Assembly: GCA_025924315.1 (NCBI GenBank)
Contig: JAICIO010000027.1
Span: 1-61,750, forward strand
DNA from: Phycisphaerae bacterium
GTDB lineage: Bacteria > Planctomycetota > Phycisphaerae > Tepidisphaerales > Tepidisphaeraceae
Reading direction: 5' to 3'
DNA length: 61,750 nucleotides
Shown: positions 5,158 to 52,154 of the stretch, piece by piece
Position numbering within the stretch: the stretch's first letter is position 1
Layout of the letters: the number at the start of each line of letters is the position of its first letter
Program-made: the position numbers and the translations under genes
Notes under the pieces: model-generated
The model's database searches: none
What the model was told of the DNA's origin: nothing
The model's input: only the letters and a program-made list of their open reading frames with translations

Positions 5158-5231
5158 GTAGGGTCCGCTTCAGCGGACCGGTTACTAGTCGTTCGAAAAG
5201 CAAATAACCGGTCCGCTGAAGCGGACCCTAC
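5158..5231. repeat. 75-bp palindromic repeat family copy
   Basis: gtagggtccgcttcagcggaccggttac-N19-ataaccggtccgctgaagcggaccctac. Contains the falsely annotated ATG (5203) of the downstream ORF. Confidence 0.85.
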
Positions 5232-5249
5232 GAGATTGGTAAGCACGGA

Positions 5250-5633
5250 TCACAACTGATAGCGGCAGTAGAGGAAGAACGCTGCGGTCGCCCAGCCGGC
5301 AATCGAAGCCCACAACGCGCAACGGCAAATCAAGATGCCGGCGCGAAACCCATAGGAGAACAGGACAAGGATGAGCGGCGCTGCAAGCGACCTGGGCATT
5401 TGCAGATAGAGCTCCAACTCCGCAGCGTGTCGGCCCGTGCCGCAATCGGTTGGGACGATCAACGCGAAGAAGGCGCGAGAGGCGAGATCCGCCGAGTGGT
5501 TAATGATCGAAACAGCAACAAGGATCGCGAAAACGGGAAACACGACGCGCAGCACGGACCTCCTGATCGTCGCCGAGGTTCGTACTGTGGCATAATCGAG
5601 CGTGAGCGTCGTCATGATCCTCGTCCAGTTCAA
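5250..5633 (-). CDS. hypothetical membrane protein
   Basis: 127 aa with three hydrophobic helices. No motifs. Confidence 0.35.
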   Translation of the reverse strand: MNWTRIMTTLTLDYATVRTSATIRRSVLRVVFPVFAILVAVSIINHSADLASRAFFALIVPTDCGTGRHAAELELYLQMPRSLAAPLILVLFSYGFRAGILICRCALWASIAGWATAAFFLYCRYQL

Positions 5634-5667
5634 TATGGCTCGTCGATCTTGAAGAGGACATGGTCAC

Positions 5668-7863: not shown

Positions 7864-7960
7864 GCTCAAACGTCCTTGGGATCGATAAAATGAGTTTATC
7901 GGAGTATAACCGAAGCCCTTATCGTAGCACGGGTTCAGAGCTCGTGCATGTAAGTGATGT

Positions 7961-8031
7961 CCACGAAGGTCACGAAGGGACACGAAGGAAATCCACCTTC
8001 TGCTATTCGTGTTACTTCGTGTTCTTCGTGG
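7961..8031. promoter_or_regulatory. inverted array of tandem heptamers (CACGAAG x3 / CTTCGTG x3) in divergent promoter region
   Basis: Reads ccacgaaggtcacgaagggacacgaagg ... ttcgtgttacttcgtgttcttcgtgg. Lies between the minus-strand ABC exporter start (7863) and the plus-strand DegT start (8096). Confidence 0.5.
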
Positions 8032-8051
8032 ACAATCCGTTTTTTGAGAAT

Positions 8052-8076
8052 GCACGGGTTGAAAACCCGTGCTACT
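8052..8076. repeat. GCACGGG-N7-CCCGTGCTAC hairpin repeat (single copy; degenerate copy at 7926-7946)
   Basis: gcacgggttgaaaacccgtgctac. The same unit recurs at 19825-19890, 42766-42836 and 50370-50436. Confidence 0.8.
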
Positions 8077-8095
8077 TCGAAGCGAACAGCCACTC

Positions 8096-9244: not shown

Positions 9245-9288
9245 ATTGAGTAGGGTGGGCAATGCCAACCGTACGACAGCGTCGGTGG

Positions 9289-9385
9289 GGCAGACATTCT
9301 TGTCTGCCTCGGATCGATGTACTCATCGAGACGAATCGGCCGCCGAATACGGCGTCCGTTGGCAGACAGGAATGTCTGCCCCACC
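9289..9385 (+). promoter_or_regulatory. two hairpins sharing the stem GGCAGACA/TGTCTGCC in the sulfatase leader
   Basis: ggggcagacattcttgtctgcc at 9289-9310 and ggcagacaggaatgtctgcccc at 9362-9383 are near reverse-complements of each other. Located 25-120 nt upstream of the sulfatase start. Confidence 0.4.
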
Positions 9386-9408
9386 GGAAACCAAGGGAAC
9401 TCGGAAAC

Positions 9409-11256
9409 ATGATTCCTCGATCCGTTCTCGCCCCAATAGCGGTCGTGATGTTTCTCGTTACGCCCATCTGTTTCGCCAAGCAGCCGAACATCCTGTGGAT
9501 CGTAAGTGAAGACAACGGCCCTTTCCTCGGTTGCTACGGCGATCCGAATGCGCACACGCCCAACCTCGACAAGCTGGCGTCGGAGGGCGTGCTGTACCTG
9601 AACGCGTTCGCCAACGCCCCGGTTTGTGCGCCATCGCGGTCGACGCTGATCACAGGCATGTATGCCTCCACGCTGGGTACGCAGAACATGCGCAGCCGAT
9701 ATCCGATCCCGCGCGAGTTCACGTTCTCTTGCCAGGAGATGCGCAAGGCCGGCTATTACTGCATGAATCCGGGCAAGACGGATTACAACATCGCCGGAAA
9801 CGACAAGCGGGCGTGGGACAAGGGAAAAAGCTGGCGCGATGCGCCGGCGGGCAAGCCGTGGATGCTGGTAATTAATTCCGGCATCACGCACGAGAGCTGT
9901 CTCATCGGGTCAAAGATCGTCGACGAATATGTGAAGACGCCGTTTCCGGTGCCGCCTTATCAACCGGACACGCCGGCCATTCACAGCAACTGGGTCGAGT
10001 ACTACCACGACATGACGAAGATGGACGCGGAGTATGGCAAGGTGCTCGACGAGCTCGCGGCGGACGGATTGGCGGACGACACGATCGTTTTCTATTACTC
10101 CGACCACGGCGGAATCCTGCCGCGGAGCAAGCGATTCGTACTGGACAGCGGGCTTCACGTGCCGCTGATTATCCGGTTCGGTAAAAACGTGCAGGAACTC
10201 TCGCCCGCGCCGGCGGGATCGAAGCTGGATCGGCTCGTCAGCTTCGTGGACTTCGCGCCAACGCTCCTCAGCATCGCGGTCGCGAAGAGCCCGGAGCGGT
10301 ACCAGGGGACGGCGTTCCTCGGACCCAGGGCAGGCGAGCCGCGGAAGATCGTGTTTGGTTTTCGCGGACGGATGGATGAGCGCATCGACCTGTCGTACAC
10401 GGTCCGCGACGAGCGCTATCGGCTGGTTCACAATTACTATCCGCATCGCATTTACGGCATGCACCTGGATTACCTGTGGAAGATGCCGGCGACGGTTTCA
10501 TGGGAAGAGGAATACCGGGCGGGCCGATGCAACGCGCCGCAGAGCGCGTTCTGGCAGGAAAAGCCGACCGAGGAGTTGTACGACGAAAATAGCGATCACT
10601 ACGAGATTCACAACCTGATCGACGATCCGAAGCTCGCCGCGGAAGTTTCGAAGCTGCGAAAGGCGCTTCGCGATCAGCTGATAGAGAATCGCGACGCGGG
10701 ATTCCTGCCGGAGTCGCAGCTCGCGGAGATGGCGAAGTCGGCGGGGTCGGTTTATGTGGCGACGCACGATCCGGCGAAGTATCCGATCGAGCGGATTGTA
10801 GACGCGGCCGATATGGCAAGCCGGCGCGATGCGCAGGATGTCGCGAAGCTGATCGAGTTTGCGAAGGACGAGAACGAGACGGTTCGCTATTGGGCGGCGG
10901 TGGGATGCTGCGTTCGCGGATCCTCAGCCAAGGATGCCGCCTCGACCATGAACGCGTTGTCGAAGGATTCGTCGCCGGCGGTGCGGATCGCGGCAGATGA
11001 AGCGCTGGTGCGATTCGGCCAGAGCGACAAACTTCATTCGCTGATCAACGAAATGGCGGACGAGAAGGGCGATCCCTTGCTGGCGGTGAATACGGTGGAA
11101 GCCCTCGGCGATCTCGCCCGCCCCGCGGCGAACGAAATCATCGCGCGCGTGAAAGCCGGATTGCCCGCCGTCGGAAAGATGAACGGCGAGCGGGGCGATT
11201 CATACACGGACCGTGCGGGCGATTCGCTGGTGCATATGCTGCAGGAAGAGAAGTGA
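9409..11256 (+). CDS. formylglycine-dependent sulfatase (arylsulfatase family) with C-terminal HEAT-like repeats
   Basis: Signal peptide. Sulfatase signature CAPSRSTLITGMY (C-x-P-x-R) plus PNILWIVSEDNG. C-terminal repeats of the VRxxAAxALxxxG type. Confidence 0.8.
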   Translation: MIPRSVLAPIAVVMFLVTPICFAKQPNILWIVSEDNGPFLGCYGDPNAHTPNLDKLASEGVLYLNAFANAPVCAPSRSTLITGMYASTLGTQNMRSRYPIPREFTFSCQEMRKAGYYCMNPGKTDYNIAGNDKRAWDKGKSWRDAPAGKPWMLVINSGITHESCLIGSKIVDEYVKTPFPVPPYQPDTPAIHSNWVEYYHDMTKMDAEYGKVLDELAADGLADDTIVFYYSDHGGILPRSKRFVLDSGLHVPLIIRFGKNVQELSPAPAGSKLDRLVSFVDFAPTLLSIAVAKSPERYQGTAFLGPRAGEPRKIVFGFRGRMDERIDLSYTVRDERYRLVHNYYPHRIYGMHLDYLWKMPATVSWEEEYRAGRCNAPQSAFWQEKPTEELYDENSDHYEIHNLIDDPKLAAEVSKLRKALRDQLIENRDAGFLPESQLAEMAKSAGSVYVATHDPAKYPIERIVDAADMASRRDAQDVAKLIEFAKDENETVRYWAAVGCCVRGSSAKDAASTMNALSKDSSPAVRIAADEALVRFGQSDKLHSLINEMADEKGDPLLAVNTVEALGDLARPAANEIIARVKAGLPAVGKMNGERGDSYTDRAGDSLVHMLQEEK

Positions 11257-11274
11257 ACTGGTGCTGGCTGATTT

Positions 11275-11350
11275 CGTAGGGTCCGCTTCAGCGGACCGGT
11301 TACTCCGTCTGTCGGCGCCAAATAATGGATCCGCCGAAGCGACTCACGAG
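11275..11350. repeat. 75-bp palindromic repeat family, degenerate copy (left arm intact)
   Basis: Left arm gtagggtccgcttcagcggaccggttac; right arm diverged. Confidence 0.6.
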
Positions 11351-11397
11351 CCGTTTCACGCACCAATCACCAATAACCAGCTTGGCGTCTCGGCGTC

Positions 11398-12555
11398 TTG
11401 GCGGTAAACCTGTCCGCCATGCATATTCCTCAACGAATCCTGCTCGGCCCCGGCCCCAGTGATGTTCCCGCTCGCGTTCTTTCGGCCCTGGCCGCGCCGA
11501 CGCTCGGCCATCTGGATCCGGCTTATTTGAAAATCATGGACCACACGCGGCAGATGCTGCGGGAGGTTTTCCGGACAAAGAACGAGCTGACGATGGCGAT
11601 CAGCGGAACGGGGTCGGCGGGGATGGAAGCTTGCGTCGCGAACCTGATCGAGCCTGGCGACGAGATGATCGTCTGCGTGAACGGCGTGTTCGGCGGGCGC
11701 ATGCGCGACGTCGCGCAGCGCTGCGGCGCGACGGTGCACAGCGTTGAGGTCGAATGGGGGCAGTCGGTTGATCCGCAGAAGGTCGCGGACGCGCTGAAGC
11801 AGCATCCGAAAACGAAAGTCGTCGGCGTGGTGCACGCGGAGACATCGACGGGCGCGCTCTCGAACGTCGAAGAGATCTCGAAAGTCGTTCACGCCGCCGG
11901 TGCGCTGATTCTCGTCGACGCAGTCACGTCATTGGGTGGCATGGATCTGCGGATCGATGATTGGAAGATTGATGCGTGCTACAGCGGCACGCAGAAGTGT
12001 CTCTCCTGTCCGCCGGGCCTTTCGCCGGTCACGATCTCGGCTGATGCGGTGAAGAAGATGGATCAGCGGAAGACGAAATGCCAGAGCTGGTATCTCGACT
12101 TCAGCATGCTGCGGCAATACTGGGGCGAAGACCGCGTTTACCATCACACCGCCCCGGTGAACATGACGTACGGTCTGCACGCGGCGCTGGCGATCGTGCT
12201 TGAGGAAGGTCTGGACAACCGCATCGCGCGACATGTGAAGAACCATCAGGCGCTGCGCGCGGGGCTGGAAGCGATCGGGCTGAAGTTCGTTCCGAAAAAC
12301 TCCCTCACAACACTCAATCTTGTCAGCGTTCCCGACGGCGCTAATGACGCGCAGATCCGCAAAGCGCTGCTCGAGCGCTTTGGAATCGAAATCGGCGCGG
12401 GCCTCGGGCCGTTCAAGGGCAAAGCCTGGCGTATCGGCCTGATGGGTTACGCGAGCAGTCAGCGCAATGTGTTGATGATCCTCGCGGCGCTGGAAACGTT
12501 GCTGGGTAAATCCGGTGCCCTCGCGCCGGCGGAGAAAGTTTACGCGTCGAAATGA
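11398..12555 (+). CDS. class V aminotransferase (alanine-glyoxylate / serine-pyruvate aminotransferase family)
   Basis: N-terminus [17 protein letters not shown]-Lys region [15 protein letters not shown]. Length 385 aa. The alternative start is 11419. Confidence 0.8.
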
Positions 12556-12578
12556 GGCGCCATCGGTGTTTTGATTCT

Positions 12579-12654
12579 GTAGGGTCCGCTTCAGCGGACC
12601 GGTTATTTGCCTTTCGAAACGGATGAATAACCGGTCCGCTGAAGCGGACCCTAC
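12579..12654. repeat. 75-bp palindromic repeat family copy
   Basis: gtagggtccgcttcagcggaccggttat-N20-ataaccggtccgctgaagcggaccctac. Located 24 nt after the aminotransferase stop. Confidence 0.85.
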
Positions 12655-12677
12655 ACGAACTACACGAACGGCGTTTT

Positions 12678-12899: not shown

Positions 12900-13183
12900 T
12901 TGCACCTGTGATGAAACATATAGCGGCTGCGATATCCGGCTTTTTCAACCCAGTCTGACGCGTTTGGCGAGGGTACAAAAGCGCCCTTCCCTCGGTTCGG
13001 TGAAAAGGAAGGGCGCGGGGTGGGGATCGGCTCGTTCAGACCAAAATCGTCGCCGCAACGAAGCGACAATTCACACGCTAGCGAGGCGGCGGCGCGGTAG
13101 AATATTTTCTGCAAACTTTGCATTGAAACGGGTGCGGGGACCGCGGCGATTTACCCTTCTTCTTTGCGCGATCCTCCATTCCG

Positions 13184-13257
13184 CAGGGTGCGCTTCAGCA
13201 CACCGGTTATTTCTCCTCGAGCGACACGAATAACCGGCGCGCTGAAGCGCACCCTAC
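13184..13257. repeat. 75-bp palindromic repeat family copy (GTGCGC variant)
   Basis: cagggtgcgcttcagcacaccggttat-N21-ataaccggcgcgctgaagcgcaccctac. Confidence 0.8.
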
Positions 13258-13290: not shown

Positions 13291-14763
13291 ATGACGCTCA
13301 AGCGAAAATTAGTGTGGCGCGATGGGGCGATGCTCTTGTGTCTCGTGTTGCTTGCCGGGGCGGCGCTGTGGGGAATGTGGGGAATGAAAAAGATCGTCGC
13401 GCTGTCTGTCTTTGAGTTCGATCAGCTGCAGAAGATCGAATCAGCTGAGGTCGCGGTGAGCAGCGCGAAAGATCTCCTGCGTGGCGGCGATTCGAATGCG
13501 GCGCGCGGGCAGATCGACAACGCGGTGGTGGGTTTGAAGGGATTTCTTTCGCCCGACGCGCCGCAGAGCGGGATCGATTATTCGAAGGAGGCGAAACTCG
13601 CGCGTTCCGGGATAACGAATTTGAAGAACGTTGCCGATCGCTTGCAGGCGAATTCGAGCGACGTGAATGCGTCGATTATCGCGCTCGATGAAACGCTCAC
13701 TGGCATGCACAGCATCGCGAAAGCGTGCGACTGGTACATCCAGGATGCGCATCAGGCCGCGGCGCAGCGCGTGCAGCTGGTGACGATCGGTCTCGCGATT
13801 CTGGGCACGCTCGGGATGATCGCGGCCGGATTGATGAGCGTCGCGATGCACCGAACGGTTATGCATCCGTTGATGAAACTTCGCGCCGGCACGCATCGTG
13901 TCGCTGCCGGTAATTTCGGCGAAAAAGTGACCGCCAACGGAGATGTGGAATTTGCGGAGCTTGCCGACGATTTCAATAAGATGGCGACCGAGCTCGATTC
14001 GTTTTATCGCGAGCTGGAGAGCAAGGTTGCACAAAAAAGCAAGGAGCTGGTTCGGTCGGAGCGGCTCGCGAGCGTGGGATTTCTCGCCGCGGGCGTGGCG
14101 CACGAGATCAACAACCCGCTGAACATTATTTCCGGTTACGCGGAGTTGAGCCTCAAGCAGGTTGCGAAGATGCAAGGCGATGAGGCGCGTGAAGCGCAGG
14201 GCGCCTTGCGGATCATTCGCGACGAAGCGTTCCGATGCAAAGAGATCACGCAAAAGCTGCTCTCGCTGGCGCGCGCGGGGGCGAACCATCGCGAGAACTT
14301 TTCGCTGGCGCACGTCGCGGAGGAAGTCACCAGCATCATCCGCGGGCTGTCGACGTACAAAGACCGCCACGTGGAAGTGGGCCTCGATCGGAATGAGCCG
14401 CTGACGGTGTACGGCAGCGTGAACGAAATCAAGCAGGTGCTGGTGAACCTGATGGTCAACGCGCTCGAAGCGGTTCGCCCGAGCGAAGGTCAGGTTCGCC
14501 TGGAAGGGCGGAGAAACAACGGATGGGTTGAGCTGTCGGTAATCGACAACGGCCGAGGCATGTCGGCGGATGTAATCGAGCACGTGTTCGAGCCGTTCTA
14601 CACCGCTAAGCGCGGCGCGGGCGAGGGCACGGGTTTGGGCCTGTCGATTACGCACGCGATCGTCGAAAGTCACGGCGGACAGGTGATCGCCGAGAGCGAA
14701 GGCGTCGGGAAAGGCAGCCGGTTTACGGTGCGGCTGCCGGTTAGGCGTAAGGCTGAAGGATGA
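13291..14763 (+). CDS. sensor histidine kinase (TM + HAMP-like + HisKA + HATPase_c)
   Basis: Two TM segments. H-box SERLASVGFLAAGVAHEINNPLN. N and G boxes: VNLMVNALEA and GTGLGLSIT. Confidence 0.8.
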   Translation: MTLKRKLVWRDGAMLLCLVLLAGAALWGMWGMKKIVALSVFEFDQLQKIESAEVAVSSAKDLLRGGDSNAARGQIDNAVVGLKGFLSPDAPQSGIDYSKEAKLARSGITNLKNVADRLQANSSDVNASIIALDETLTGMHSIAKACDWYIQDAHQAAAQRVQLVTIGLAILGTLGMIAAGLMSVAMHRTVMHPLMKLRAGTHRVAAGNFGEKVTANGDVEFAELADDFNKMATELDSFYRELESKVAQKSKELVRSERLASVGFLAAGVAHEINNPLNIISGYAELSLKQVAKMQGDEAREAQGALRIIRDEAFRCKEITQKLLSLARAGANHRENFSLAHVAEEVTSIIRGLSTYKDRHVEVGLDRNEPLTVYGSVNEIKQVLVNLMVNALEAVRPSEGQVRLEGRRNNGWVELSVIDNGRGMSADVIEHVFEPFYTAKRGAGEGTGLGLSITHAIVESHGGQVIAESEGVGKGSRFTVRLPVRRKAEG

Positions 14764-14840
14764 AGGCTGAAAGGCGGATTGCGCGTCCGTTCAGCGTTCA
14801 TAATTCATCCTTCATCCTTACCTGCGTAGCGGAGTGAATC

Positions 14841-15489: not shown

Positions 15490-15564
15490 GTCATCCTGAG
15501 CGAAGCGAAGGATCTCGGGATGGCAAGACGTGTGCGATATCGAGATCCTTCGCTTCGCTCAGAG
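15490..15564. repeat. inverted pair of the GTCATYCTGAGCGAAGCGAAGRATCTC repeat (hairpin, no internal gene)
   Basis: gtcatcctgagcgaagcgaaggatctcggg-N21-cgagatccttcgcttcgctcagag. Same motif as the repeats flanking the GIY-YIG gene. Confidence 0.8.
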
Positions 15565-15714
15565 TCTGTGATTTTTTGCGTGGCGAGGGCGTCTCGCCCT
15601 CGCATTTGCGGCTACCGCCGCGTTCGCGAGGGCAAGATGCCCTCGCCACGCTGAAAAGATCACACGCTCTCAGGATGACGGTTTTCGTTTTAGCCAACGT
15701 CACTTCGCGAGAAT

Positions 15715-19644: not shown

Positions 19645-19827
19645 ATGTTCGCGATAGTCGTCATCGGCGGATTGATCGTGCTGGGTTTTGTTGCGGCTGC
19701 CATGCGTAAGCTGCGACGAGGTCGAGCCAATTCGACCGCCGAGAACGTTGCGATCGCAGTCGTGTCTATGGTTGTCATCGCCGGCTTTCTGTATGCGTTG
19801 TGGGCGATGAAGAAAGGTTTGAAGTAG
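19645..19827 (+). CDS. hypothetical 60-aa two-TM protein immediately downstream of groEL1
   Basis: Two hydrophobic helices. Starts 4 nt after the groEL1 stop. No clear RBS. Confidence 0.3.
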   Translation: MFAIVVIGGLIVLGFVAAAMRKLRRGRANSTAENVAIAVVSMVVIAGFLYALWAMKKGLK

Positions 19828-19890
19828 CACGGGTTTTCAACCCGTGCATCGACGAAGAAAGACATGCACGGGTTGAAAACCCGTGCTACG
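19825..19890. repeat. inverted pair of GCACGGG-N7-CCCGTGC hairpin units
   Basis: gtagcacgggttttcaacccgtgc-N18-gcacgggttgaaaacccgtgctac. Confidence 0.85.
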
Positions 19891-20855: not shown

Positions 20856-20926
20856 GTAGGGTGTGCTTCAGCACACCATCTGAACAGCGCAGTTAAGGAA
20901 AGACGGTGTGCTGAAGCACACCCTAC
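20856..20926. repeat. palindromic repeat family, GTGTGC variant lacking the GGTTAT core
   Basis: gtagggtgtgcttcagcacacc-N27-ggtgtgctgaagcacaccctac. Same variant at 52094-52154. Confidence 0.8.
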
Positions 20927-21231: not shown

Positions 21232-21233
21232 GA

Positions 21234-21318
21234 GAAGCCAGGAGCCAGAAGCCAGAAGCCAATAGAAGGCTTCGGCCGGCGGCTCCTTCTGGCTTCTGAC
21301 TACTGGCTTCTGGCTTCT
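21234..21318 (+). promoter_or_regulatory. long imperfect hairpin of tandem GCCAGAA heptamers and their complement between groES and groEL2
   Basis: gaagccaggagccagaagccagaagcc ... ggctccttctggcttctgactactggcttctggcttc. The same architecture occurs upstream of dapL. Confidence 0.6.
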
Positions 21319-23047: not shown

Positions 23048-23118
23048 GTAGGGTCCGCTTCAGCGGACCGGTTACGTCTGTTCGAATTGGATAACCGGTC
23101 CGCTGAAGCAGACCCTAC
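23048..23118. repeat. 75-bp palindromic repeat family copy
   Basis: gtagggtccgcttcagcggaccggttac-N15-ataaccggtccgctgaagcagaccctac. Confidence 0.85.
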
Positions 23119-23139: not shown

Positions 23140-23214
23140 GTAGGGTGCGCTGAAGCGCACCGGTTATTTCTGTGCCGCGTGAATGAATAACCGGTGCGCT
23201 GAAGCGCACCCTAC
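23140..23214. repeat. 75-bp palindromic repeat family copy (GTGCGC variant), tandem with the previous copy
   Basis: gtagggtgcgctgaagcgcaccggttat-N21-ataaccggtgcgctgaagcgcaccctac. Confidence 0.85.
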
Positions 23215-24431: not shown

Positions 24432-24436
24432 AGGAA

Positions 24437-24524
24437 TTGTTCATTGATGATTTGTTCATTTGTTCATTGAAGGACGCGCGTGTTGCAACTCTGAAATGAA
24501 CAAATGAATAAATGAATAATGACC
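24437..24524. promoter_or_regulatory. AT-rich palindromic array of TTGTTCATT / AATGAACAA units upstream of grpE
   Basis: ttgttcattgatgatttgttcatttgttcattga ... tgaaatgaacaaatgaataaatgaataatga. Strongly AT-biased island in a GC-rich genome. Confidence 0.5.
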
Positions 24525-24534
24525 AATAAACATT

Positions 24535-25141: not shown

Positions 25142-25495
25142 ATGCCAACTTACGAATACGAATGCGACGCCTGCGGGCATAAGTTTGAGAAGTTTCAGTC
25201 GATCACCGCTGCGCCGATCAAGAAGTGCCCGGTGTGTGGGAAGAACAAGGTGCGCCGGCTCATCGGCACGGGCGCGGGGTTGATCTTCAAAGGATCCGGC
25301 TTCTATATCACCGATTACCGCGACTCTTCGTACAAGGACAAAGCGAAGTCGGAATCGGGCGAGACGAAGAGCGAAACGAAGTCGGAACCGTCGTCGGGTG
25401 GTGAGAAGAATGCCGAAACGAAATCCGAATCAAAGCCCACCGCGGAATCCAAGCCGGCTCCGAAGAAAGAATCGAAGTCGAAGAAAAAGGAGTAG
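25142..25495 (+). CDS. FmdB-family zinc-ribbon protein with Lys/Ser/Glu-rich tail
   Basis: MPTYEYECDACGHKFEKFQSITAAPIKKCPVCG. The stop codon TAG is supplied by the first bases of the downstream palindromic repeat. Confidence 0.7.
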   Translation: MPTYEYECDACGHKFEKFQSITAAPIKKCPVCGKNKVRRLIGTGAGLIFKGSGFYITDYRDSSYKDKAKSESGETKSETKSEPSSGGEKNAETKSESKPTAESKPAPKKESKSKKKE

Positions 25496-25568
25496 GGTGC
25501 GCTTCAGCGCACCGGTTATTCGTTGTGCCGATAGGAAGAAATAACCGGTCCGCTGAAGCGGACCCTAC
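25492..25568. repeat. 75-bp palindromic repeat family copy (hybrid GTGCGC left arm / TCCGC right arm)
   Basis: gtagggtgcgcttcagcgcaccggttat-N22-ataaccggtccgctgaagcggaccctac. Confidence 0.85.
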
Positions 25569-27570: not shown

Positions 27571-27603
27571 TTGCAATTGGGCGTCTAACGCAGTTCGTGA
27601 AAG

Positions 27604-27680
27604 AAGCCAGAAGCCAGAAGCCAGTAGCCAGAAGGGCCTTGCTCCTTCTCCTGGCTTCTGGCTCCTGGCTTCTGGCTTCT
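27604..27680 (+). promoter_or_regulatory. GCCAGAA-heptamer inverted array hairpin immediately upstream of dapL
   Basis: gaagccagaagccagaagccagtagccagaagg ... ccttctcctggcttctggctcctggcttctggcttc. Ends 15 nt before the ATG. Confidence 0.6.
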
Positions 27681-27695
27681 TCTTTTGGATTTCTC

Positions 27696-28981: not shown

Positions 28982-29055
28982 TGTAGGGTCCGCTTTAGCG
29001 GACCGGTTATTCGCCGTTTCGAGCAGAAATAACCGGTCCGCTGAAGCGGACCCTA
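28982..29055. repeat. 75-bp palindromic repeat family copy
   Basis: gtagggtccgctttagcggaccggttat-N19-ataaccggtccgctgaagcggaccctac. Confidence 0.85.
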
Positions 29056-29071
29056 CAAGAACAGGATTATC

Positions 29072-30582: not shown

Positions 30583-30619
30583 GTATCCGCCCAACCACCG
30601 CTATTGTTGTGAGACCTTC

Positions 30620-30693
<74 letters not shown>

Positions 30694-30729
30694 TTTCGTT
30701 TTTGTTTGCCTTATCCTTGCCGCCCGTCC

Positions 30730-31647
30730 ATGGACAATTCAGCGAAAAAGTTGGCCGGCGTGCTGCCGGTGTTTCAGACGCCTTATCACGACGATGAATC
30801 GATCGACGCGGCGACGCTGGGGCGCGAGATTCAGTGGCTTTATGACTGTGGGGCGGATGGCATCGTGATGGCGATGGTGTCGGAGGTGCTGCGGCTGGAC
30901 ACGCTGGAGCGGCGCGAGCTGGCGGAGCTGGCGTGCAAGTTTGGCCGCGAGCGCGGGGCGGTGGTGATCAGCGTGGGGGCAGAGAGCAGTAAGTCGGCAG
31001 AAGGATACGCGCAGCATGCGGAGGCGAACGGGGCCGCGGCGGTGATGGCGATTCCGCCGGTTTCTGTTGCGATTGGTGAAGACGAACTTTTGCGCTATTA
31101 CGAGCGGATTATTGGGGCGATCGAGATTCCGGTGATCGTGCAGGACGCGAGCGGTTACGTCGGCCGGCCGATGCCGATCGCGATGCAGGCGCGGCTGATG
31201 AACAGCTTCGGCCGTGAGCGCGTGCTGTTCAAACCGGAAGCGACGCCGATCGGTCCGCGGCTCAGCGCGCTGCGCGATGGGACGAAGGGTGAGGCGAGAA
31301 TCTTCGAAGGCACCGGCGGGATCGCGCTGCTCGACAGCCACCGCCGCGGGATCGTCGGCACGATGCCGGGTGCGGATCTGATCAAGGGAATCGTGGCGCT
31401 GTGGCGGGCGCTTGAGGCAAAGGACGAAAAGCGCGCCTACGAGCTTTCGCTGCCGATCTCATCGCTCGTCGCGGTTCAAAACTCGCTCGACGCGTTTCTC
31501 GCGATCGAGAAATATCTGCTCGTGAAACAGGGAATATTCAAGAACACGCTCGTCCGCGGGCCGGTTGGTTACGCGCTCGACGAAGAGACGCGGCGCGAGG
31601 TGGATCGGCTGTTCGATCTCGTCCTGTGCGCGGTCGGCTCCGTGTAG
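30730..31647 (+). CDS. DapA-family class I aldolase (dihydrodipicolinate synthase / N-acetylneuraminate lyase-like, divergent)
   Basis: DapA-fold length and pattern: TPYHDD..ID...REIQWLYDCGADGIV; KPEATP aligns with the catalytic Lys region. The GxTGE motif is replaced by MAMVSE. The annotated ORF start at 30667 overlaps the tRNA and is rejected. Confidence 0.6.
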   Translation: MDNSAKKLAGVLPVFQTPYHDDESIDAATLGREIQWLYDCGADGIVMAMVSEVLRLDTLERRELAELACKFGRERGAVVISVGAESSKSAEGYAQHAEANGAAAVMAIPPVSVAIGEDELLRYYERIIGAIEIPVIVQDASGYVGRPMPIAMQARLMNSFGRERVLFKPEATPIGPRLSALRDGTKGEARIFEGTGGIALLDSHRRGIVGTMPGADLIKGIVALWRALEAKDEKRAYELSLPISSLVAVQNSLDAFLAIEKYLLVKQGIFKNTLVRGPVGYALDEETRREVDRLFDLVLCAVGSV

Positions 31648-31717
31648 GTGCGCTCATCGCACTGGTTATTTCTTCTGTGCGAGCAATGAATAACCGGTGC
31701 GCTGAAGCGCACTCTAC
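31644..31717. repeat. 75-bp palindromic repeat family copy (divergent variant)
   Basis: gtaggtgcgctcatcgcactggttat-N21-ataaccggtgcgctgaagcgcactctac. Confidence 0.75.
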
Positions 31718-34947: not shown

Positions 34948-34965
34948 AGCCGACTCGAGCGTTTT

Positions 34966-34990
34966 TAGGGTCCGCTCGAGCGGACCCTAC
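34966..34990. repeat. minimal copy (outer stem only) of the palindromic repeat family
   Basis: tagggtccgctcgagcggaccctac. Confidence 0.6.
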
Positions 34991-41846: not shown

Positions 41847-42770
41847 ATGACATCGCCCAATTTGATTCTCTCGGTCGGCACGCAGGTGGTCGTGTTGATC
41901 GAAGCGCGCGGGCCGGATGGAAAGCCGGTGCATCCCCGCGGAGCGGTCGGGGTGATCGTGCAGGCGCCGGCGGACTACTGGCACAGCTATCGCGTGAAGT
42001 TTCCGGATGGCTTCGAGGCGTCGTTCAAGCGCACGGAGCTGGCGATCCTCTCGCACTACAAGCAAGGCGACATGGCTGGCGAGCAGCAGCTTGCGGAGTA
42101 CAACCTGTACGATCGCGTGATCTATCGCTGCGTGATTGGTTCGCGCGCCTACGGGCTCGATCACGACGAAAGCGATACCGACCGCCGCGGGGTTTACCTC
42201 CCTCCGGCGGAGTTGCAGTGGTCGCTCTATGGTGTGCCGGAGCAGTTGGAGAATCCCGAAACCGAAGAGGTGTATTGGGAGCTGCAGAAATTTTTGACGC
42301 TGGCGCTGAAGGCGAATCCGAATGTGCTGGAGTGTCTTTATACGCCAATCGTAGAACATGCATCGGAGATCGCCCAGGAGTTGCTCGCGATGCGCGCGAG
42401 CTTTCTCTCGAAGATGGTGTATCAGACGTACAACGGCTATGTGATGAGCCAGTTCAAGAAGTTGCAGGCGGACCTTCGCAACAAGGGCGAGGTAAAGTGG
42501 AAGCATGTGATGCATCTGATTCGCCTGCTGATCAGCGGGGTGACAGTGCTTCAGGAAGGGTTTGTGCCGGTGCGCGTCGAGGAACATCGTGAAAAACTGC
42601 TGGCGATCAAACGCGGAGAAGTCGCCTTTGAAGAAGTTGAGCGGTGGCGATTGGAGCTGCACCGGCAGTTTGATGCGGCGAGCGAATCGACGAACCTTCC
42701 GGAGCGGCCGGATTATGAGGCGGCGAATGGGCTATTGCTTACCGCGCGCCGCTCGGCGCTGGCCATGTAG
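41847..42770 (+). CDS. nucleotidyltransferase-fold protein (Pol-beta superfamily, RlaP-like) with N-terminal extra domain
   Basis: GSRAYGLDHDESDTDRRGVY, of the G[SG]x9-13Dx[DE] type. Adjacent paralog downstream. Confidence 0.5.
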   Translation: MTSPNLILSVGTQVVVLIEARGPDGKPVHPRGAVGVIVQAPADYWHSYRVKFPDGFEASFKRTELAILSHYKQGDMAGEQQLAEYNLYDRVIYRCVIGSRAYGLDHDESDTDRRGVYLPPAELQWSLYGVPEQLENPETEEVYWELQKFLTLALKANPNVLECLYTPIVEHASEIAQELLAMRASFLSKMVYQTYNGYVMSQFKKLQADLRNKGEVKWKHVMHLIRLLISGVTVLQEGFVPVRVEEHREKLLAIKRGEVAFEEVERWRLELHRQFDAASESTNLPERPDYEAANGLLLTARRSALAM

Positions 42771-42836
42771 CACGGGCACCTTGCCCGTGCCGATCACGGC
42801 TTGAGCCGCAAATGCACGGGCTGGTACCCCGTGCTA
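42766..42836. repeat. inverted pair of GCACGGG...CCCGTGC hairpin units (loop variants)
   Basis: gtagcacgggcaccttgcccgtgc-N24-gcacgggctggtaccccgtgctac. Lies between the two nucleotidyltransferase paralogs. Confidence 0.8.
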
Positions 42837-42852
42837 CGAAAAGGAGGGCACG

Positions 42853-43589
42853 ATGAATCCTTCATTGCATAAAATCGTTCGTGAACAACCCTATCCGCTG
42901 CTCTTCGCGACGATCAGCGGGGCGCATTTGTATGGCTTTCCCTCGCCGGACTCGGATTTTGATCTGCGTGGCGTGCATTTGCTGCCGGTGCGCGAGGTGC
43001 TCGGGCTGAAAACCCCGCGCGAGACGATTGAGGTTTCGGGGATGTACGACGGGATCGAGATGGATCTTGTCACGCATGACGCGAAGAAGTTCTTCTCGCT
43101 GCTCTTGAAGAAGAACGGTTATGTTCTGGAGCAGCTGTATTCGCCGCTGATCGTGCACACGACGCCGGAGCACGAGGAACTGAAGCGCATCGCCCGCGGA
43201 AGCATCACGCGCATCATTACTTCGGATTCGCGGAAACGCAGTGGAACCTGTTCGAGAAGGAACATCCGCGGCGGGTGAAGCCGCTGTTGTACGTGTATCG
43301 AGTGCTGCTGACGGGAATTCACCTGATGCGGGCCGGCGAGGTCGAGCCGAATCTCGTGCGGCTGAATGAGGAAGCGAAATTGCCGTACATCGACGAACTG
43401 GTGCGGCGGAAGCTGAGCGGGCCGGAGCAATCGCGGCTCGACGACGCGGACATGCCGTTTCATCGGGCGGAGTACGAGCGGTTACGCGGCGAATTGCAGA
43501 AGGCATTTGAGGCGAGCGCGCTGCCGGAGAATCCATCGGCGCAGGATGGGCTGAGCGACCTTCTGATCCGGCTGCGGATGGCGACATGA
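42853..43589 (+). pseudogene. second nucleotidyltransferase paralog, split by a frameshift near 43200
   Basis: 42853-43278 carries GAHLYGFPSPDSDFDLRGVH. After about 43200 the homology to paralog 1 continues in the frame of ORF 43275-43589; HYFGFAETQWNLFEKEHPRRVKPLLYVYRVLLTG aligns to YNGYVMSQFKKLQ...KWKHVMHLIRLLISG. Confidence 0.4.
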
Positions 43590-43595
43590 AGTCTC

Positions 43596-43670
43596 GTAGG
43601 GTCCGCTTAAGCGGACCGGTTACTCATTCGCTCGAAAGATAAATAACCGGTCCGCTGAAGCGGACCCTAC
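43596..43670. repeat. 75-bp palindromic repeat family copy
   Basis: gtagggtccgcttaagcggaccggttac-N20-ataaccggtccgctgaagcggaccctac. Confidence 0.85.
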
Positions 43671-46805: not shown

Positions 46806-46816
46806 TCGCCCCTTTC

Positions 46817-46877
46817 GCCGCTTGCGGCTTAGCGGGAACGAGAGCAACGTTTTATTTCCCGCTAAGCCGCAAGCGGC
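46817..46877. repeat. unique 21-bp perfect inverted repeat (hairpin) downstream of the oxidoreductase
   Basis: gccgcttgcggcttagcggga-N19-tcccgctaagccgcaagcggc. No flanking U-tract. Confidence 0.6.
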
Positions 46878-46899
46878 TCGAAATGCTACAATCCGGAAT

Positions 46900-48017: not shown

Positions 48018-48133
48018 AAATCCGCCCCATTTCGTCACTTGCTCGTAACTCGCGTTATAGAAAACCTCGCGAAAGATAAAAGACCCGGAATATCCGGTAT
48101 GCAATGATCTCTCCATCTCAAACAGGAGAGATC

Positions 48134-50251: not shown

Positions 50252-50369
50252 CCCGTGAGGTTCGTCACGTGGGATGAGGGACGGGGGGGAGTGCTCGCGA
50301 CGGATGGAACTGCTTCGAGCGCTTCCACCCTCATCCCACGGTTGTTTTTGAACGCCGGTCCCAAAAATC

Positions 50370-50436
50370 GCACGGGTTTTCAACCCGTGCTTTCTTTTTG
50401 TGTATGGAGAATGCACGGGTCACAAACCCGTGCTAC
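50370..50436. repeat. inverted pair of GCACGGG...CCCGTGC hairpin units
   Basis: gcacgggttttcaacccgtgc-N22-gcacgggtcacaaacccgtgctac. The second unit shares the extended flank gagaatgcacggg...cccgtgctactt with the copy at 8045-8078. Confidence 0.85.
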
Positions 50437-50453
50437 TTGTTTTTGGGAGGCCA

Positions 50454-52097
50454 ATGGATCCGCTCTACACGTTCACGCTCTCACACGACGGCACGCCGGC
50501 TTCTTACGACGAATCGCTCGCCGTCGCCTGCTTGCAAGGCCTCATCAATCGCGACGCGCCGCGGTTGTATGTGCTGTCCAAGAAGAACGCGCGGCCGCAA
50601 TACTGGCTCGACATTCTCTCGAAGAACAATCGCTGGCTCGCGGGGCGGGAGCTTCACGCGATCGAGGATCTCGATGGATTGATCAAGCTCACCGGCGACA
50701 AGCTGAAAGGCGCGGTCATCTGGGACCCTGAAGTTCCCGCCACCGTGAACGTCGCGACGACGATCGCGGGGATCGAGGACGGCGTTGTGCTCAGTCCCGA
50801 GTTGCACCAATCGTCATCGCTCCCGGTCCTCCACGATCTTCGCGGAAGATCCACCGGATCCGAGACCGGAAGCAAAAAGAACGACGCCTATCGCTGGGCG
50901 ATTCGCGAGTACCTCGACAAGAACCTCTGCTCGTCGAAATTTCTCTGCCTTTATGAAGATTCGTTTACGATGCGCGCCAAGGGCGACATCGGCTACATCC
51001 TCACGCGCGACTGGGCAGTGAAGAATCATTCGTTCGTGTTCGACCTTTCACCATGGCCGGACGAAGCGCCCGCCGATGACCCGGATCAGAAGATCGGCAT
51101 CGATTATGAAACGTACCAGATGATCCTCGACCGCATTGGCAAATCCGCCGGCGGAAAGCACATGACGGAGATGACCGGCTTCTTCGCGTTCACCAAATAT
51201 TCGAGTGAAGGTGGCCGCAAGAGCAAGCATCTCCCGGTGCCGACGGAATGGCAAACGGTGTGGATCATCTCGCCGCACAACACCTATCAGAACACCATCT
51301 CGAGCGATTGTTTCAATCAGTCGCTGCACAGCCAGGCCCCGCGAAAGCCGCTCAAGCAGAAGTTCAACAGACCTCCGCTGCCGAAGCTCGAGAACAAAGC
51401 GTACGTCGCGATTCTCATGGCGGATTACGATTCCGCGACGCCGCTCTACGATTTTCTCCCGTCGCATTGGGACGACGCGCAGCGCGGCACGTCGCCGTTT
51501 ATCTGGGGCATGAATCCGAATCTCATTGACACGTATCCGGACCTCATTGCTTACTTTTACGAGACGGCGACGAGTGCGGATACGTTCGGCTCCGATGCAA
51601 GCTGCGCGGGGTACATGAATCCAAACTCAATCCGCAAAGAATCGCTTCCGCTGTTCACCGCGCACAACAAGAAATACTTTACCGAAGCCGACATGACGAT
51701 CGCGCCGATGGTGCTCGACCAGGATCAGCCCTCGCCCGACGTGAAGGATGCGTTCGCACAATTCGCGCCCCAGGGGATGGCATGCTTCGTCGATGACCAG
51801 CATGGCACAGGCGGAAAATTCCCGCCGCCGCAGGTTTGGAAGGGCATGCCGGTCATCGAATTGATGAACGAGCCGTGCAATTCAAAAAGCCCGGAAGAAC
51901 TCGCGACGGCGTTCGCGCGGCGCATCACGGCATATCGCCCCGGTTCACCGCTCTTCTGCATCTTCCGCTGCGTGTGGGTGAATCCGTCCGCGGTAAAAGG
52001 CGGGCTTGAACTGCTGAAGAAGCAGAACCCAAACCTACCAATCGAGGTGGTCGATCCGCACACGTTCTTGTCGCTGTTCAAAGTGTGGAAGTCGTAG
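50454..52097 (+). CDS. hypothetical protein (possible carbohydrate-active enzyme), function unknown
   Basis: 547 aa with good coding signal. No motif recognized with confidence. Located next to the sulfatase. Confidence 0.45.
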   Translation: MDPLYTFTLSHDGTPASYDESLAVACLQGLINRDAPRLYVLSKKNARPQYWLDILSKNNRWLAGRELHAIEDLDGLIKLTGDKLKGAVIWDPEVPATVNVATTIAGIEDGVVLSPELHQSSSLPVLHDLRGRSTGSETGSKKNDAYRWAIREYLDKNLCSSKFLCLYEDSFTMRAKGDIGYILTRDWAVKNHSFVFDLSPWPDEAPADDPDQKIGIDYETYQMILDRIGKSAGGKHMTEMTGFFAFTKYSSEGGRKSKHLPVPTEWQTVWIISPHNTYQNTISSDCFNQSLHSQAPRKPLKQKFNRPPLPKLENKAYVAILMADYDSATPLYDFLPSHWDDAQRGTSPFIWGMNPNLIDTYPDLIAYFYETATSADTFGSDASCAGYMNPNSIRKESLPLFTAHNKKYFTEADMTIAPMVLDQDQPSPDVKDAFAQFAPQGMACFVDDQHGTGGKFPPPQVWKGMPVIELMNEPCNSKSPEELATAFARRITAYRPGSPLFCIFRCVWVNPSAVKGGLELLKKQNPNLPIEVVDPHTFLSLFKVWKS

Positions 52098-52154
52098 GGT
52101 GTGCTTCAGCACACTATCCTCGCCCACAAAACGGTGTGCTGAAGCACACCCTAC
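52094..52154. repeat. palindromic repeat family, GTGTGC variant
   Basis: gtagggtgtgcttcagcacac-N19-ggtgtgctgaagcacaccctac. Confidence 0.8.

What the first reader, a model, noticed from the sequence alone, without database searches (positions are those of the whole stretch)
5158..52154. Abundant ~75-bp perfect palindromic intergenic repeat family (13 copies in 62 kb)
The element is GTAGGGTCCGCTTCAGCGGACCGGTTAT-N15-22-ATAACCGGTCCGCTGAAGCGGACCCTAC. It forms a hairpin with a stem of about 27 bp. Variable loops and arm variants occur (GTGCGC, GTGTGC, a minimal stem-only form, and one copy with a decayed arm). All copies are intergenic, mostly just after stop codons, and two lie in tandem between groEL2 and dnaJ. 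Several lend their first bases to stop codons (the FmdB TAG) or create spurious ORF extensions (the ATG at 5203 and the GTG at 25525).

The density, about one per 5 kb, and the arm co-variation (both arms change together: GCGGACC/GGTCCGC versus GTGCGC/GCGCAC versus GTGTGC/GCACAC) argue for propagation as a hairpin. They argue against simple copying of a linear sequence. This is the behaviour expected of a REP/MITE-like element that may be mobilised by a tyrosine REP-associated (RAYT) transposase or may serve as a terminator or mRNA-stabilising structure.
Basis: seen in the sequence. Interest (0 to 1): 0.6.

Follow-up and report, generated by a model that had tools for sequence, protein, structure and literature searches.

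The report
GTAG-type REP doublets (REPINs) in a planctomycete
The 13 palindromes are real and are a textbook family of bacterial "REP" repeats arranged as inverted pairs (REPINs), a known kind of small non-coding mobile DNA, here seen at high density in a soil planctomycete; this is an ordinary find, not a new class of element.

Summary
There are 13 intergenic palindromic elements in 47 kb, against 0 expected by chance.

The anatomy needs restating. Each ~22-nt arm is itself a canonical REP unit: an unpaired 5' GTAG foot, a 7-bp stem (GGTSYGC/GCRSACC) and a 4-nt loop. The 75-bp "hairpin" is two such units head-to-head with GTAG outside. This is the HH dimer of Di Nocera 2013 and the REPIN of Bertels & Rainey 2011.

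- **Stem compensation.** Stem variants are compensated inside each arm. Four doublets have arms that differ from each other while each arm keeps a perfect stem; the reverse case was never seen.
- **Ends.** There are no target-site duplications and no U-tracts.
- **Conservation.** Arms are about 90% identical between copies, while the spacer centre is about 30% identical.
- **Distribution.** The same 22-nt core occurs in many Phycisphaerae/Tepidisphaerales MAGs, in soil metagenomes and in Rhodobacterales.
- **Transposase.** No RAYT gene lies in the window. One soil contig has this REP 43 nt upstream of a truncated RAYT N-terminus. Class-2.2 RAYT genes elsewhere are flanked by GTAGG-foot REPs (four of five read GTAGGG).

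Verdict: a new member of a known kind. The RAYT link in this genome is still unproven. Interest is low to moderate.

The parts
5158..5231 (.). REPIN (HH doublet), CCGC/GCGG subtype with GGTTA extension and perfect arms. It lies 18 nt after the stop of the minus-strand gene 5250-5633.
   Evidence: (I10: 27-nt arms, 100% complementary)
11276..11349 (.). REPIN with an intact left REP and a decayed right arm. It lies 19 nt after the stop of the sulfatase/HEAT gene 9262-11256.
12579..12654 (.). REPIN with perfect 30-nt arms. It lies 23 nt after the stop of the aminotransferase gene 11398-12555. Contig L081 of a sister MAG breaks inside it.
   Evidence: I6; RNA fold -66.1 kcal/mol, z = -13.6
13183..13257 (.). 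REPIN of the GCGC subtype, partly decayed (GCAG foot, one stem mismatch). It lies 33 nt before the histidine-kinase gene start at 13291.
   Evidence: (I9)
20856..20926 (.). REPIN of the GTGC/GCAC subtype without the GGTTAT extension. It lies 1 nt after the DUF2442 stop and 17 nt before groES. It is absent from the orthologous spacer of Tepidisphaerales MAG L023.
   Evidence: (I18)
23048..23118 (.). REPIN of the CCGC subtype and first of two in tandem between the second Cpn60 gene and dnaJ. Contig L081 ends inside it.
   Evidence: (I13)
23140..23214 (.). REPIN of the GCGC subtype and second of the tandem pair. It lies 71 nt before dnaJ.
   Evidence: (I7)
25492..25568 (.). Heterodimer REPIN: the left arm is GCGC and the right arm is CCGC, each internally perfect. 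Its GTAG supplies the TAG stop of the Zn_ribbon_8 (FmdB-like) gene, and it ends 7 nt before the YacG ATG. The same heterodimer is kept at the orthologous site of a contig that is 94% identical (L107).
28983..29056 (.). REPIN of the CCGC subtype. It lies 45 nt after the aminotransferase stop and 15 nt before the next start.
   Evidence: (I2)
31644..31717 (.). REPIN of the GCGC subtype with a decayed left arm (1-nt deletion plus substitutions). Its GTAG supplies the TAG stop of the DHDPS-family gene.
34965..34990 (.). Collapsed minimal form, TTAGGGTCCGC-TCGA-GCGGACCCTAC. It is what a deletion between the direct GGTCCGCT repeats of the two arms of a doublet would leave (inference).
   Evidence: -19.3 kcal/mol
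43596..43670 (.). REPIN of the CCGC subtype between convergent genes. It lies 6 nt after the RlaP-fragment stop and 24 nt after the phosphonate-binding gene stop.
   Evidence: (I4)
52094..52154 (.). REPIN of the GTGC subtype with a short spacer, between convergent genes. Both genes (GxGYxYP on plus, sulfatase on minus) take their TAG stop from the two GTAG feet.
   Evidence: (I24)

Best explanation
The elements are a family of GTAG-type repetitive extragenic palindromes (REPs) organised as head-to-head inverted doublets, that is, REPINs.

**Unit.** The functional unit is the 22-nt REP: an unpaired 5' GTAG guide tetranucleotide at the foot of a 7-bp stem (GGTSYGC/GCRSACC) with a TTCA loop.

**Doublet.** Two such units face each other with GTAG outside. 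They are usually joined by a conserved GGTTAT(TT)...(GA)ATAACC extension and a free central spacer.

**Most likely mechanism (inferred from the family, not shown here).** A single-copy HUH/Y1 REP-associated tyrosine transposase (RAYT, probably of the class-2.2 / NF047646 type) is encoded elsewhere in the genome. It recognises the REP hairpin plus GTAG on single-stranded DNA at the replication fork. It cuts next to the hairpin and copies or moves whole doublets into intergenic DNA without duplicating the target.

**After insertion.** The elements are transcribed as part of 3' UTRs and intercistronic spacers, where they fold into very stable RNA hairpins. They may secondarily protect or modulate the messages.
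For: **Shown**
1. 13 loci against 0 expected by chance.
2. A lone arm folds as ....(((((((....))))))) with GTAG unpaired, at -12.4 kcal/mol. [quoted passage not shown] Foot plus stem is 11 nt, inside the 10-13 nt range reported for short REPs.
3. Compensation is within arms. 85 of 93 units are complementary against 46.2 expected. 97.6% of within-arm cells are paired against 91.6% between arms. Four heterodimers are internally perfect, and none shows the reverse pattern.
4. Every REP unit in the window sits in a doublet or in a decayed or collapsed doublet. The spacers are weakly but significantly homologous (0 of 500 shuffles reach the observed score). So the doublet is the copied unit.
5. There is no target-site duplication: 85 of 101 doublets have none, the same as the null. 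All 13 copies are intergenic, 11 between co-directional genes, 2 between convergent genes and 0 between divergent genes.
6. Presence/absence at orthologous sites. The DUF2442-groES spacer has a REPIN here and none in Tepidisphaerales MAG L023. The site after groEL carries a different GTAG REPIN family in L023.
8. Assembly breaks of a sister MAG fall inside REPINs.

**Link to RAYT (partial)**
- Soil contig L195 has GTAGGGTCCGCTTCAGCGGACC followed 43 nt later by the ORF MPNFLRAFNPGGTFFFPVV..., which is cut by the contig end.
- That ORF's only NCBIfam hit is NF047646, REP-associated tyrosine transposase (E 0.002, profile positions 4-39).
- Its best tblastn hits are the start codons of four independent RAYT genes.
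- The 43-nt REP-to-ATG geometry is the same as in the S. stutzeri REPtron.
- All five class-2.2 RAYT loci examined are flanked by REPs with a GTAGG foot. Four read GTAGGG[CT]G and L221 reads GTAGGACGG.

**Literature**
GTAG REPs, HH dimers with complementary spacer ends, coexisting families and occurrence in Planctomycetes are described in PMC3733652.
Against: - No Y1/HUH transposase gene is present in the 61.75-kb window or in about 1.0 Mb of REP-anchored DNA, apart from the truncated L195 fragment. This was tested with regexes, phmmer and two HMMs that cross-detect each other's family.
- The source genome could not be scanned, so a cognate RAYT in this organism is not shown.
- The L195 fragment is only 41 aa, with E about 0.002, and its organism is unknown.
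- The spacer centre is nearly saturated (about 30% identity) while the arms are about 90% identical. Recent transposition alone does not explain this. It implies in-situ constraint or gene conversion on the arms.
- No insertion polymorphism is seen among strains that are 99.7-99.9% and 94% identical. Current mobility is therefore slow or nil.
Confidence: 0.78

Rival explanations
1. The elements are primarily host-functional RNA elements. They would be very stable 3'-UTR or intercistronic hairpins kept by selection because they block 3'-5' exonucleases, punctuate operons, or tune translation of the gene whose stop codon they abut. Their origin as mobile DNA would be secondary or long past.
For: - 12 of 13 copies lie 0-85 nt downstream of a stop codon. 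Five lie within 6 nt of a stop or overlap it.
- RNA folds reach -48 to -66 kcal/mol, with z from -8.5 to -13.6.
- Arms are about 90% identical between copies, while the spacer centre is about 30% identical. This looks like purifying selection on each copy in place.
- The copies are stable among strains and in a relative that is 94% identical.
- G-U pairs occur in stems.
- REPs are reported to stabilise mRNA, terminate transcription and regulate translation (background in PMC6006769; PMC3733652).
Against: - This does not explain the invariant unpaired GTAG foot, the pyrimidine immediately 5' of it (G only 5-7%), the spread of one 22-nt core over unrelated genes and phyla, or the RAYT-adjacent copy.
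- Presence differs at orthologous sites.
- No transcript data are available.
- This explanation is not exclusive of the main one, since elements can be exapted.
Confidence: 0.3
2. The elements are canonical Rho-independent transcription terminators that happen to share sequence.
For: They are strong GC-rich hairpins just after stop codons.
Against: - No U-tract follows. There are 0-3 T in the 10 nt after the hairpin on the transcribed strand for all 13 copies.
- Several sit 7-17 nt in front of the next cistron of an operon (groES, yacG, 29072), where termination would be harmful.
- Terminators do not share a 22-nt core across phyla.
Confidence: 0.05
3. The elements are DDE-type MITEs, that is, internally deleted copies of an insertion sequence mobilised through their terminal inverted repeats.
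For: They have long terminal inverted repeats, are small, and occur in many intergenic copies.
Against: - There are no target-site duplications.
- The 'TIR' is itself an internal palindrome with a GTAG foot.
- Units also occur as singlets and as tail-to-tail (TT) pairs in other genomes.
- No recurrent transposase gene is found next to them in 1 Mb.
Confidence: 0.03
4. The elements are repeats of the TIRYT type. They would be partners of the very abundant 233-aa Y1 transposase family of Planctomycetota, not of a classical RAYT.
For: That transposase family is very common in Planctomycetota and Phycisphaerae metagenomes: 7,998 proteins scored E <= 1e-5, and the listed top 120 are 78-87% identical to the query.
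Against: - Its genes are flanked by a different inverted repeat, AAAGGGGTCAGGACT / AGTCCTGACCCCTTT, which carries the GGGGWSAS motif of PMC3733652.
- That repeat is absent from the window.
- None of these loci carries the GTAGGGT unit.
Confidence: 0.04

Closest known systems
GTAG-tagged REP families and their HH (head-head) dimers (Di Nocera, De Gregorio & Rocco 2013, PMC3733652)
   Same: - A 5' GTAG tag, a 6-13 bp stem and a 2-4 nt loop.
- Sub-families with alternative complementary stem residues.
- Dimers with GTAG outside and 20-100 bp spacing, with complementary spacer ends.
- Homo- and heterodimers.
- Location mostly downstream of ORFs and between co-directional or convergent genes.
- Several families coexisting in one genome.
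- Already reported in Planctomycetes (R. baltica, P. brasiliensis, P. limnophilus) and in a Rhodobacterales genome (Ruegeria pomeroyi).
   Different: I could not tell which of the 24 published families, if any, has this consensus, because the figure is not held and no paper contains the sequence. The host here is a Phycisphaerae/Tepidisphaerales-like soil MAG, which that survey did not cover.
REPINs of Pseudomonas fluorescens SBW25 and the REPIN-RAYT systems (Bertels & Rainey 2011, PMC3116915; PMC3337134)
   Same: - Two inverted REPs plus a spacer form the replicative unit.
- Singlets are decayed doublets.
- The elements are extragenic.
- Populations hold a master sequence with variants.
   Different: - A cognate RAYT has not been shown in this genome.
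- The spacer centre is almost unconserved (about 30% identity), while arms and extension are about 90% identical.
- The same REP core appears in several phyla. REPIN-RAYT systems are described as mostly vertically inherited (abstract of 10.1101/2022.05.22.493013).
E. coli REP/BIME and TnpA-REP (RayT/YafM), and REPtrons of class-2.2 RAYTs
   Same: - A GTAG guide at the hairpin foot is needed for cleavage (PMC6006769).
- The REPtron geometry matches: in S. stutzeri (L216) a GTAGGGTG... REP lies 43 nt upstream of the RAYT ATG, and L195 has the same 43-nt distance for this REP family.
- All five class-2.2 RAYT loci examined have GTAGG-foot REPs; four read GTAGGG[CT]G and L221 reads GTAGGACGG.
   Different: - Those REPs have longer stems of 9-13 bp, some with bulges. 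This family has a 7-bp stem and a 4-nt loop.
- No L/S-type BIME linker motifs are present.

Membership tests
GTAG-type REP (repetitive extragenic palindrome) | A conserved 5' GT[AG]G tetranucleotide sits directly at the foot of a short stem-loop. | tested here: met
   GTAG is present on 22 of 25 arms in the window (the others read GCAG, TTAG or are decayed). The arm fold leaves GTAG unpaired above a 7-bp stem.
GTAG-type REP (repetitive extragenic palindrome) | The stem is kept by compensatory changes (sub-families with alternative complementary residues). | tested here: met
   Stem variants are CCGC/GCGG, GCGC/GCGC and GTGC/GCAC. 85 of 93 units are complementary against 46 expected. 97.6% of cells are paired, with 5 pairs showing double changes, and 0 of 500 shuffles reach the covariation score.
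GTAG-type REP (repetitive extragenic palindrome) | The element is extragenic, multi-copy and dispersed over the genome. | tested here: met
   The window has 13 intergenic loci in 47 kb. A genome-wide count for this organism was not possible.
REPIN (REP doublet forming a hairpin) | Two REPs lie in inverted orientation, separated by a short spacer and able to pair as one hairpin. | tested here: met
   There are 12 doublets with 17-33 nt between the 22-nt cores, with folds of -48 to -66 kcal/mol.
REPIN (REP doublet forming a hairpin) | The doublet, not the single REP, is the unit that is copied. | tested here: met
   No free singlet exists in the window; all units are in intact, decayed or collapsed doublets. 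The extension GGTTATTT/GAATAACC is 88% conserved. The spacer centres are more alike than shuffles (0 of 500).
REPIN (REP doublet forming a hairpin) | A cognate RAYT gene (HUH/Y1, PF01797/NF047646) is present in the same genome and flanked by the same REP. | tested here: inconclusive
   None is present in the window or in about 1 Mb of REP-anchored loci. One truncated RAYT N-terminus lies 43 nt from this REP in soil contig L195. A protein search with the fragment found nothing.
REPIN (REP doublet forming a hairpin) | There is evidence of mobility, seen as presence/absence at orthologous sites. | tested here: met
   A REPIN is present at DUF2442-groES here and absent in L023. A different GTAG family occupies the site after groEL in L023. 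No polymorphism is seen at 99.7-99.9% identity (5-6 sites) or at 94% identity (1 site), so turnover is slow.
DDE-type MITE | Target-site duplications flank the element. | tested here: not met
   85 of 101 doublets have no direct flank repeat, and the distribution equals the shuffled null.
Intrinsic (Rho-independent) terminator | A GC-rich hairpin is followed by a U-tract. | tested here: not met
   There are 0-3 T in the 10 nt after the hairpin on the transcribed strand for all copies.
Any Rfam RNA family | A match at the gathering score. | tested here: not met
   Only tRNA-Arg (30619-30694) is found in the whole window.

The most novel reading that the evidence does not exclude
One REP core of 22 nt, GTAGGGT-SYGC-TTCA-GCRS-ACC, is shared essentially unchanged by several groups. 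These are Phycisphaerae/Tepidisphaerales (Planctomycetota), many Rhodobacterales isolates, and scattered Chloroflexota, Hydrogenedentota and Gamma-/Betaproteobacteria.

In this genome the arms stay about 90% identical while the spacer between them has drifted to near-random.

Together these points would mean two things. First, a RAYT-REPIN system has crossed phylum boundaries, against the prevailing picture of strictly vertical REPIN-RAYT inheritance. Second, once resident, the doublets are kept copy by copy by host-level selection, for example as 3'-end RNA structures abutting stop codons.
Probability: 0.25. Interest if true: 0.5.

Novelty: new member of a known kind. Interest (0 to 1): 0.27.

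Why it matters
REPs and REPINs are well studied in Gammaproteobacteria and little studied elsewhere. This window shows a dense population, about one doublet per 4.7 kb, plus at least one more GTAG family, in an uncultured soil planctomycete lineage.

Practical consequences:
- The doublets break short-read assemblies. Sister-MAG contig ends fall inside them.
- They create false start codons.
- They donate TAG stop codons to four genes here, so annotation pipelines for these MAGs should mask them.

Scientific value:
- The contrast between conserved arms and a free spacer, and the cross-phylum sharing of the core, give a usable test case. It can address whether REPINs are kept by their transposase or by the host, and whether REPIN-RAYT systems are ever transferred horizontally.

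None of this is a new kind of element.

Tried and rejected
- **Literature search** for the arm sequences (five substrings, full text): only chance primer matches.
- **Plasmid collection**, blastn with a whole doublet: no match.
- **IMG/VR scan** with the degenerate core: 3 loci only, so phages are not an obvious vector.
- **Recurrent neighbouring gene family** near the REPs in all loci: none beyond chance.
- **RAYT search in the window and 204 REP-anchored loci**, using HUH...Y regexes, phmmer with remembered sequences and two HMMs built from real proteins: nothing except L195.
- **Abundant planctomycete 233-aa Y1 family**: it has its own GGGGTCAGGACT inverted repeats and is unrelated to this REP.
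- **Protein search with the 41-aa L195 fragment**: no candidate.
- **RAYT relatives in viral contigs**: 2 loci. One has GTAGGGTGGGT-type REPs, not this family.
- **Orientation bias of the doublets** as defined by spacer asymmetry: 4 forward against 6 reverse, so none.
- **Flank complementarity beyond GTAG**: not above the null.
- **Organism name** via cluster look-up: no name on record. The Tepidisphaerales-like placement rests on 79% nucleotide identity (about 81% amino-acid) and synteny to L023.
Full report
**1. Is it there?**

Yes. The 22-nt arm GTAGGGTCCGCTTCAGCGGACC, allowing up to 3 mismatches, occurs 18 times in the window. None occurs in 100 dinucleotide-preserving shuffles. The inverted-repeat scan recovers the doublets with arms of 21-37 nt at 89-100% complementarity.

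Reading every site gives 13 loci:
- ten doublets with both arms recognisable (some carry 1-3 arm substitutions);
- two doublets with one decayed arm (11276-11349 on the right, 31644-31717 on the left);
- one 26-nt collapsed palindrome (34965-34990).

The window is a 59-61% GC contig rich in sulfatase genes. It carries two Cpn60 genes, groES, dnaJ, grpE and one tRNA-Arg.

Two sister MAG contigs (GCA_025937145.1 and GCA_025927995.1) are 99.9% and 99.7% identical to parts of the window. The closest named relative among the fetched loci is a Tepidisphaerales MAG, L023. It shares the order DUF4160-DUF2442-groES-groEL at about 79% nucleotide identity (about 81% at the amino-acid level).

**2. Anatomy**

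GTAG is followed by GGTCCGC-TTCA-GCGGACC.

- Folded alone, an arm gives ....(((((((....))))))) at -12.4 kcal/mol with GTAG unpaired.
- Folded as a doublet, the two arms pair into one hairpin of -48 to -66 kcal/mol.
- Ten of the doublets extend the arms by GGTTAT(TT)/(GA)ATAACC. The two GTGC-type doublets (20856, 52094) do not.

[quoted passage not shown] It also matches the "HH dimer" of GTAG repeats, with GTAG termini outside, 20-100 bp apart, and spacers with complementary ends (PMC3733652). Bertels and Rainey named the same arrangement a REPIN.

**3. Which structure is selected?**

The variable stem positions (CC/GG, GC/GC, GT/AC) are compensated within each arm.

- In the genome loci, which were retrieved with a pattern that left these four positions free, 85 of 93 units are complementary. 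Marginal frequencies predict 46.
- In the window alignment, 97.6% of within-arm cells pair, against 91.6% of between-arm cells.
- Among 101 doublets, 68 have arms with identical stems and perfect internal pairing, and 29 carry uncompensated changes.
- Four doublets have arms that differ from each other while each arm keeps a perfect internal stem (window 25492-25568, L107, L138, L065).
- No doublet keeps between-arm pairing at the cost of the internal stem.

The numbers are small but point one way. The REP hairpin is the constrained structure, and the long stem follows from the inverted pairing. Any copying of a whole doublet keeps both arms alike.

**4. The doublet is the copied unit, but the copies are not young**

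Every REP unit in the window belongs to an intact, decayed or collapsed doublet. Once oriented by their asymmetric ends (GGTTATTT on one side, GAATAACC or GTAACC on the other), the spacers share a weak TTCGA-centred core. Their mean pairwise score exceeds all 500 shuffles.

Identity between copies differs sharply by region:

| Region | Identity between copies |
|---|---|
| REP cores | 85-91% |
| GGTTAT-type extension | 88-89% |
| Spacer centre | about 30% |

Either each copy's arms are held in place by selection or gene conversion, or the loop of the hairpin mutates much faster than the stem. I cannot separate these possibilities.

**5. Ends and insertion**

- There is no target-site duplication, and the palindrome does not extend beyond GTAG. 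Both distributions equal the shuffled null.
- The base just 5' of GTAG is a pyrimidine in about 80% of units in all three data sets. G is there in only 5-7%.
- The lack of duplication argues against a DDE-type MITE. It fits HUH/Y1 chemistry, which is established for IS200/IS605 and TnpA-REP (PMC6006769).

**6. Context**

- All 13 copies are intergenic: 11 between co-directional genes, 2 between convergent genes, and none in the six divergent spacers. With 13 copies this is not significant.
- Twelve copies lie 0-85 nt after a stop codon, and four genes take their TAG stop from a GTAG foot.
- Several copies sit 7-17 nt in front of the next cistron (groES, yacG, 29072).
- No copy is followed by a U-tract on the transcribed strand, so they are not canonical terminators.
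- Rfam has no family for them.

**7. Distribution and turnover**

These fall into three groups:
- 37 loci from Phycisphaerae/Tepidisphaerales/Planctomycetota MAGs, where 24 of 44 units are in HH doublets;
- 35 loci from Rhodobacterales and other Alphaproteobacteria, including isolates of Rubellimicrobium, Aliishimia, Pseudorhodobacter and Roseovarius, where units are mostly singlets with some HH and TT pairs;
- 7 loci from other phyla.

The GGTTAT-type doublet recurs in Tepidisphaerales MAG La5 and in many of these contigs. Neighbouring genes are unrelated to one another.

Comparison at orthologous sites:
- The DUF2442-groES spacer has a REPIN here and none in L023.
- The site after groEL carries a different GTAG REPIN in L023 (GTAGGGCGGGATAGCAATCCCGCC...).
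- At close range nothing moves. There are no differences in 5-6 REPIN sites at 99.7-99.9% identity.
- The heterodimer at 25492 is kept, with one substitution in the spacer, in a contig that is 94% identical.
- A sister-MAG contig begins and ends inside REPINs.

**8. The transposase**

No Y1/HUH gene is in the window.

Two protein searches returned real families:
- A 233-aa Y1 family is very common in Planctomycetota. It has its own GGGGTCAGGACT inverted repeats, of the TIRYT type in PMC3733652, and has no link to this REP.
- Classical "REP-associated tyrosine transposases" of class 2.2 were examined at five loci, and all five genes are flanked by REPs with a GTAGG foot:
  - S. stutzeri: GTAGGGTGGATAACGC..., 43 nt upstream of the ATG;
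  - a betaproteobacterial MAG: GTAGGG[CT]GGCTTCGC...;
  - three further loci, L221, L222 and L223.

HMMs built from both families were run over the window and all 204 REP-anchored loci. They gave one hit, soil contig L195 (Ga0137364_10368221).
- There the REP GTAGGGTCCGCTTCAGCGGACC is followed after 43 nt by the ORF MPNFLRAFNPGGTFFFPVVTEARARPL..., which the contig end cuts off.
- The ORF's only NCBIfam match is NF047646, REP-associated tyrosine transposase (E 0.002).
- Its best tblastn matches are the start codons of four independent RAYT genes.
- A database search with the fragment found nothing.

The RAYT link is therefore suggestive for the family and untested for this genome.

**9. Verdict**

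This is a GTAG-REP/REPIN family in a Tepidisphaerales-like planctomycete, a new member of a known kind. GTAG REPs, HH dimers, coexisting families and their occurrence in Planctomycetes and in a Rhodobacterales genome are already in the literature (PMC3733652). Two leads go slightly beyond the ordinary: the cross-phylum identity of the core, and the contrast between conserved arms and a drifted spacer.

Noticed in passing
window 8052-8075, 19824-19889, 42767-42837, 50367-50436: A second, unrelated GTAG REP family: GTAG-CACGGG-TTTTCAA-CCCGTGC. It occurs as three HH doublets and one singlet, against 0 expected by chance. Among the fetched loci it was found only in the two near-identical sister contigs.
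   Followed up: partly
window 21233-21318, 27601-27681, 24436-24527, 7958-8034, 14747-14821; L023 2190-2290: Intergenic hairpins whose arms are tandem 7-8-nt units followed by their reverse complement: (AGAAGCC)n twice, (TGTTCAT)n, (CACGAAGG)n and (GAAGGMTGAA). They sit right after stop codons. The orthologous groES-groEL spacer of a Tepidisphaerales MAG has a hairpin built from a different unit, (GATTGTGGA)n. So the position is conserved and the sequence is not. The origin and role of these hairpins are unexplained.
   Followed up: partly
window 9283-9386, 46817-46877, 15496-15562, 15561-15668: Further nested-palindrome doublets of other sequence. One is CGGTGG-GGCAGACA-TTCT-TGTCTGCC with its inverted partner 52 nt away. 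Another is GCCGC-TT-GCGGC-TTAGCGGGAA with its partner. They may be additional REP-like families, one with a GTGG foot.
   Followed up: no
L205 870-916 and 1619-1640; L206 2950-3000 and 3685-3700: The very abundant 233-aa Y1 transposase family of Planctomycetota (7,998 proteins at E <= 1e-5; the listed top 120 are 78-87% identical to the query) sits in conserved synteny. It is flanked by AAAGGGGTCAGGACT / AGTCCTGACCCCTTT inverted repeats, which is TIRYT-like. That repeat is absent from this window.
   Followed up: partly
window 42853-43278 and 43275-43589: An RlaP-family (RNA-repair-pathway polymerase-beta-like) gene is split into two overlapping ORFs that cover profile positions 8-120 and 148-248. 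This could be a frameshift, a pseudogene or an assembly error. A REPIN follows 6 nt after the second ORF.
   Followed up: no
window 54000-61750: The last ~8 kb has 52-53% GC, against 59-61% elsewhere, and contains none of the 13 REPIN loci described here (the last ends at 52154).
   Followed up: no
window 4283-5203 (minus strand): The longest ORF here combines a Bac_DNA_binding (HU-like) domain (aa 50-129) and a DUF4241 domain (aa 196-292). Its listed TTG start lies inside the REPIN at 5158-5231, so the true start is further downstream.
   Followed up: no
L220 1161-1439 and 1501-2037: In a betaproteobacterial MAG the RAYT gene is preceded by a duplicated 5' fragment of itself. Each copy is bounded by the same heterodimeric REPIN. 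This looks like a REPIN-mediated partial duplication of a REPtron.
   Followed up: no
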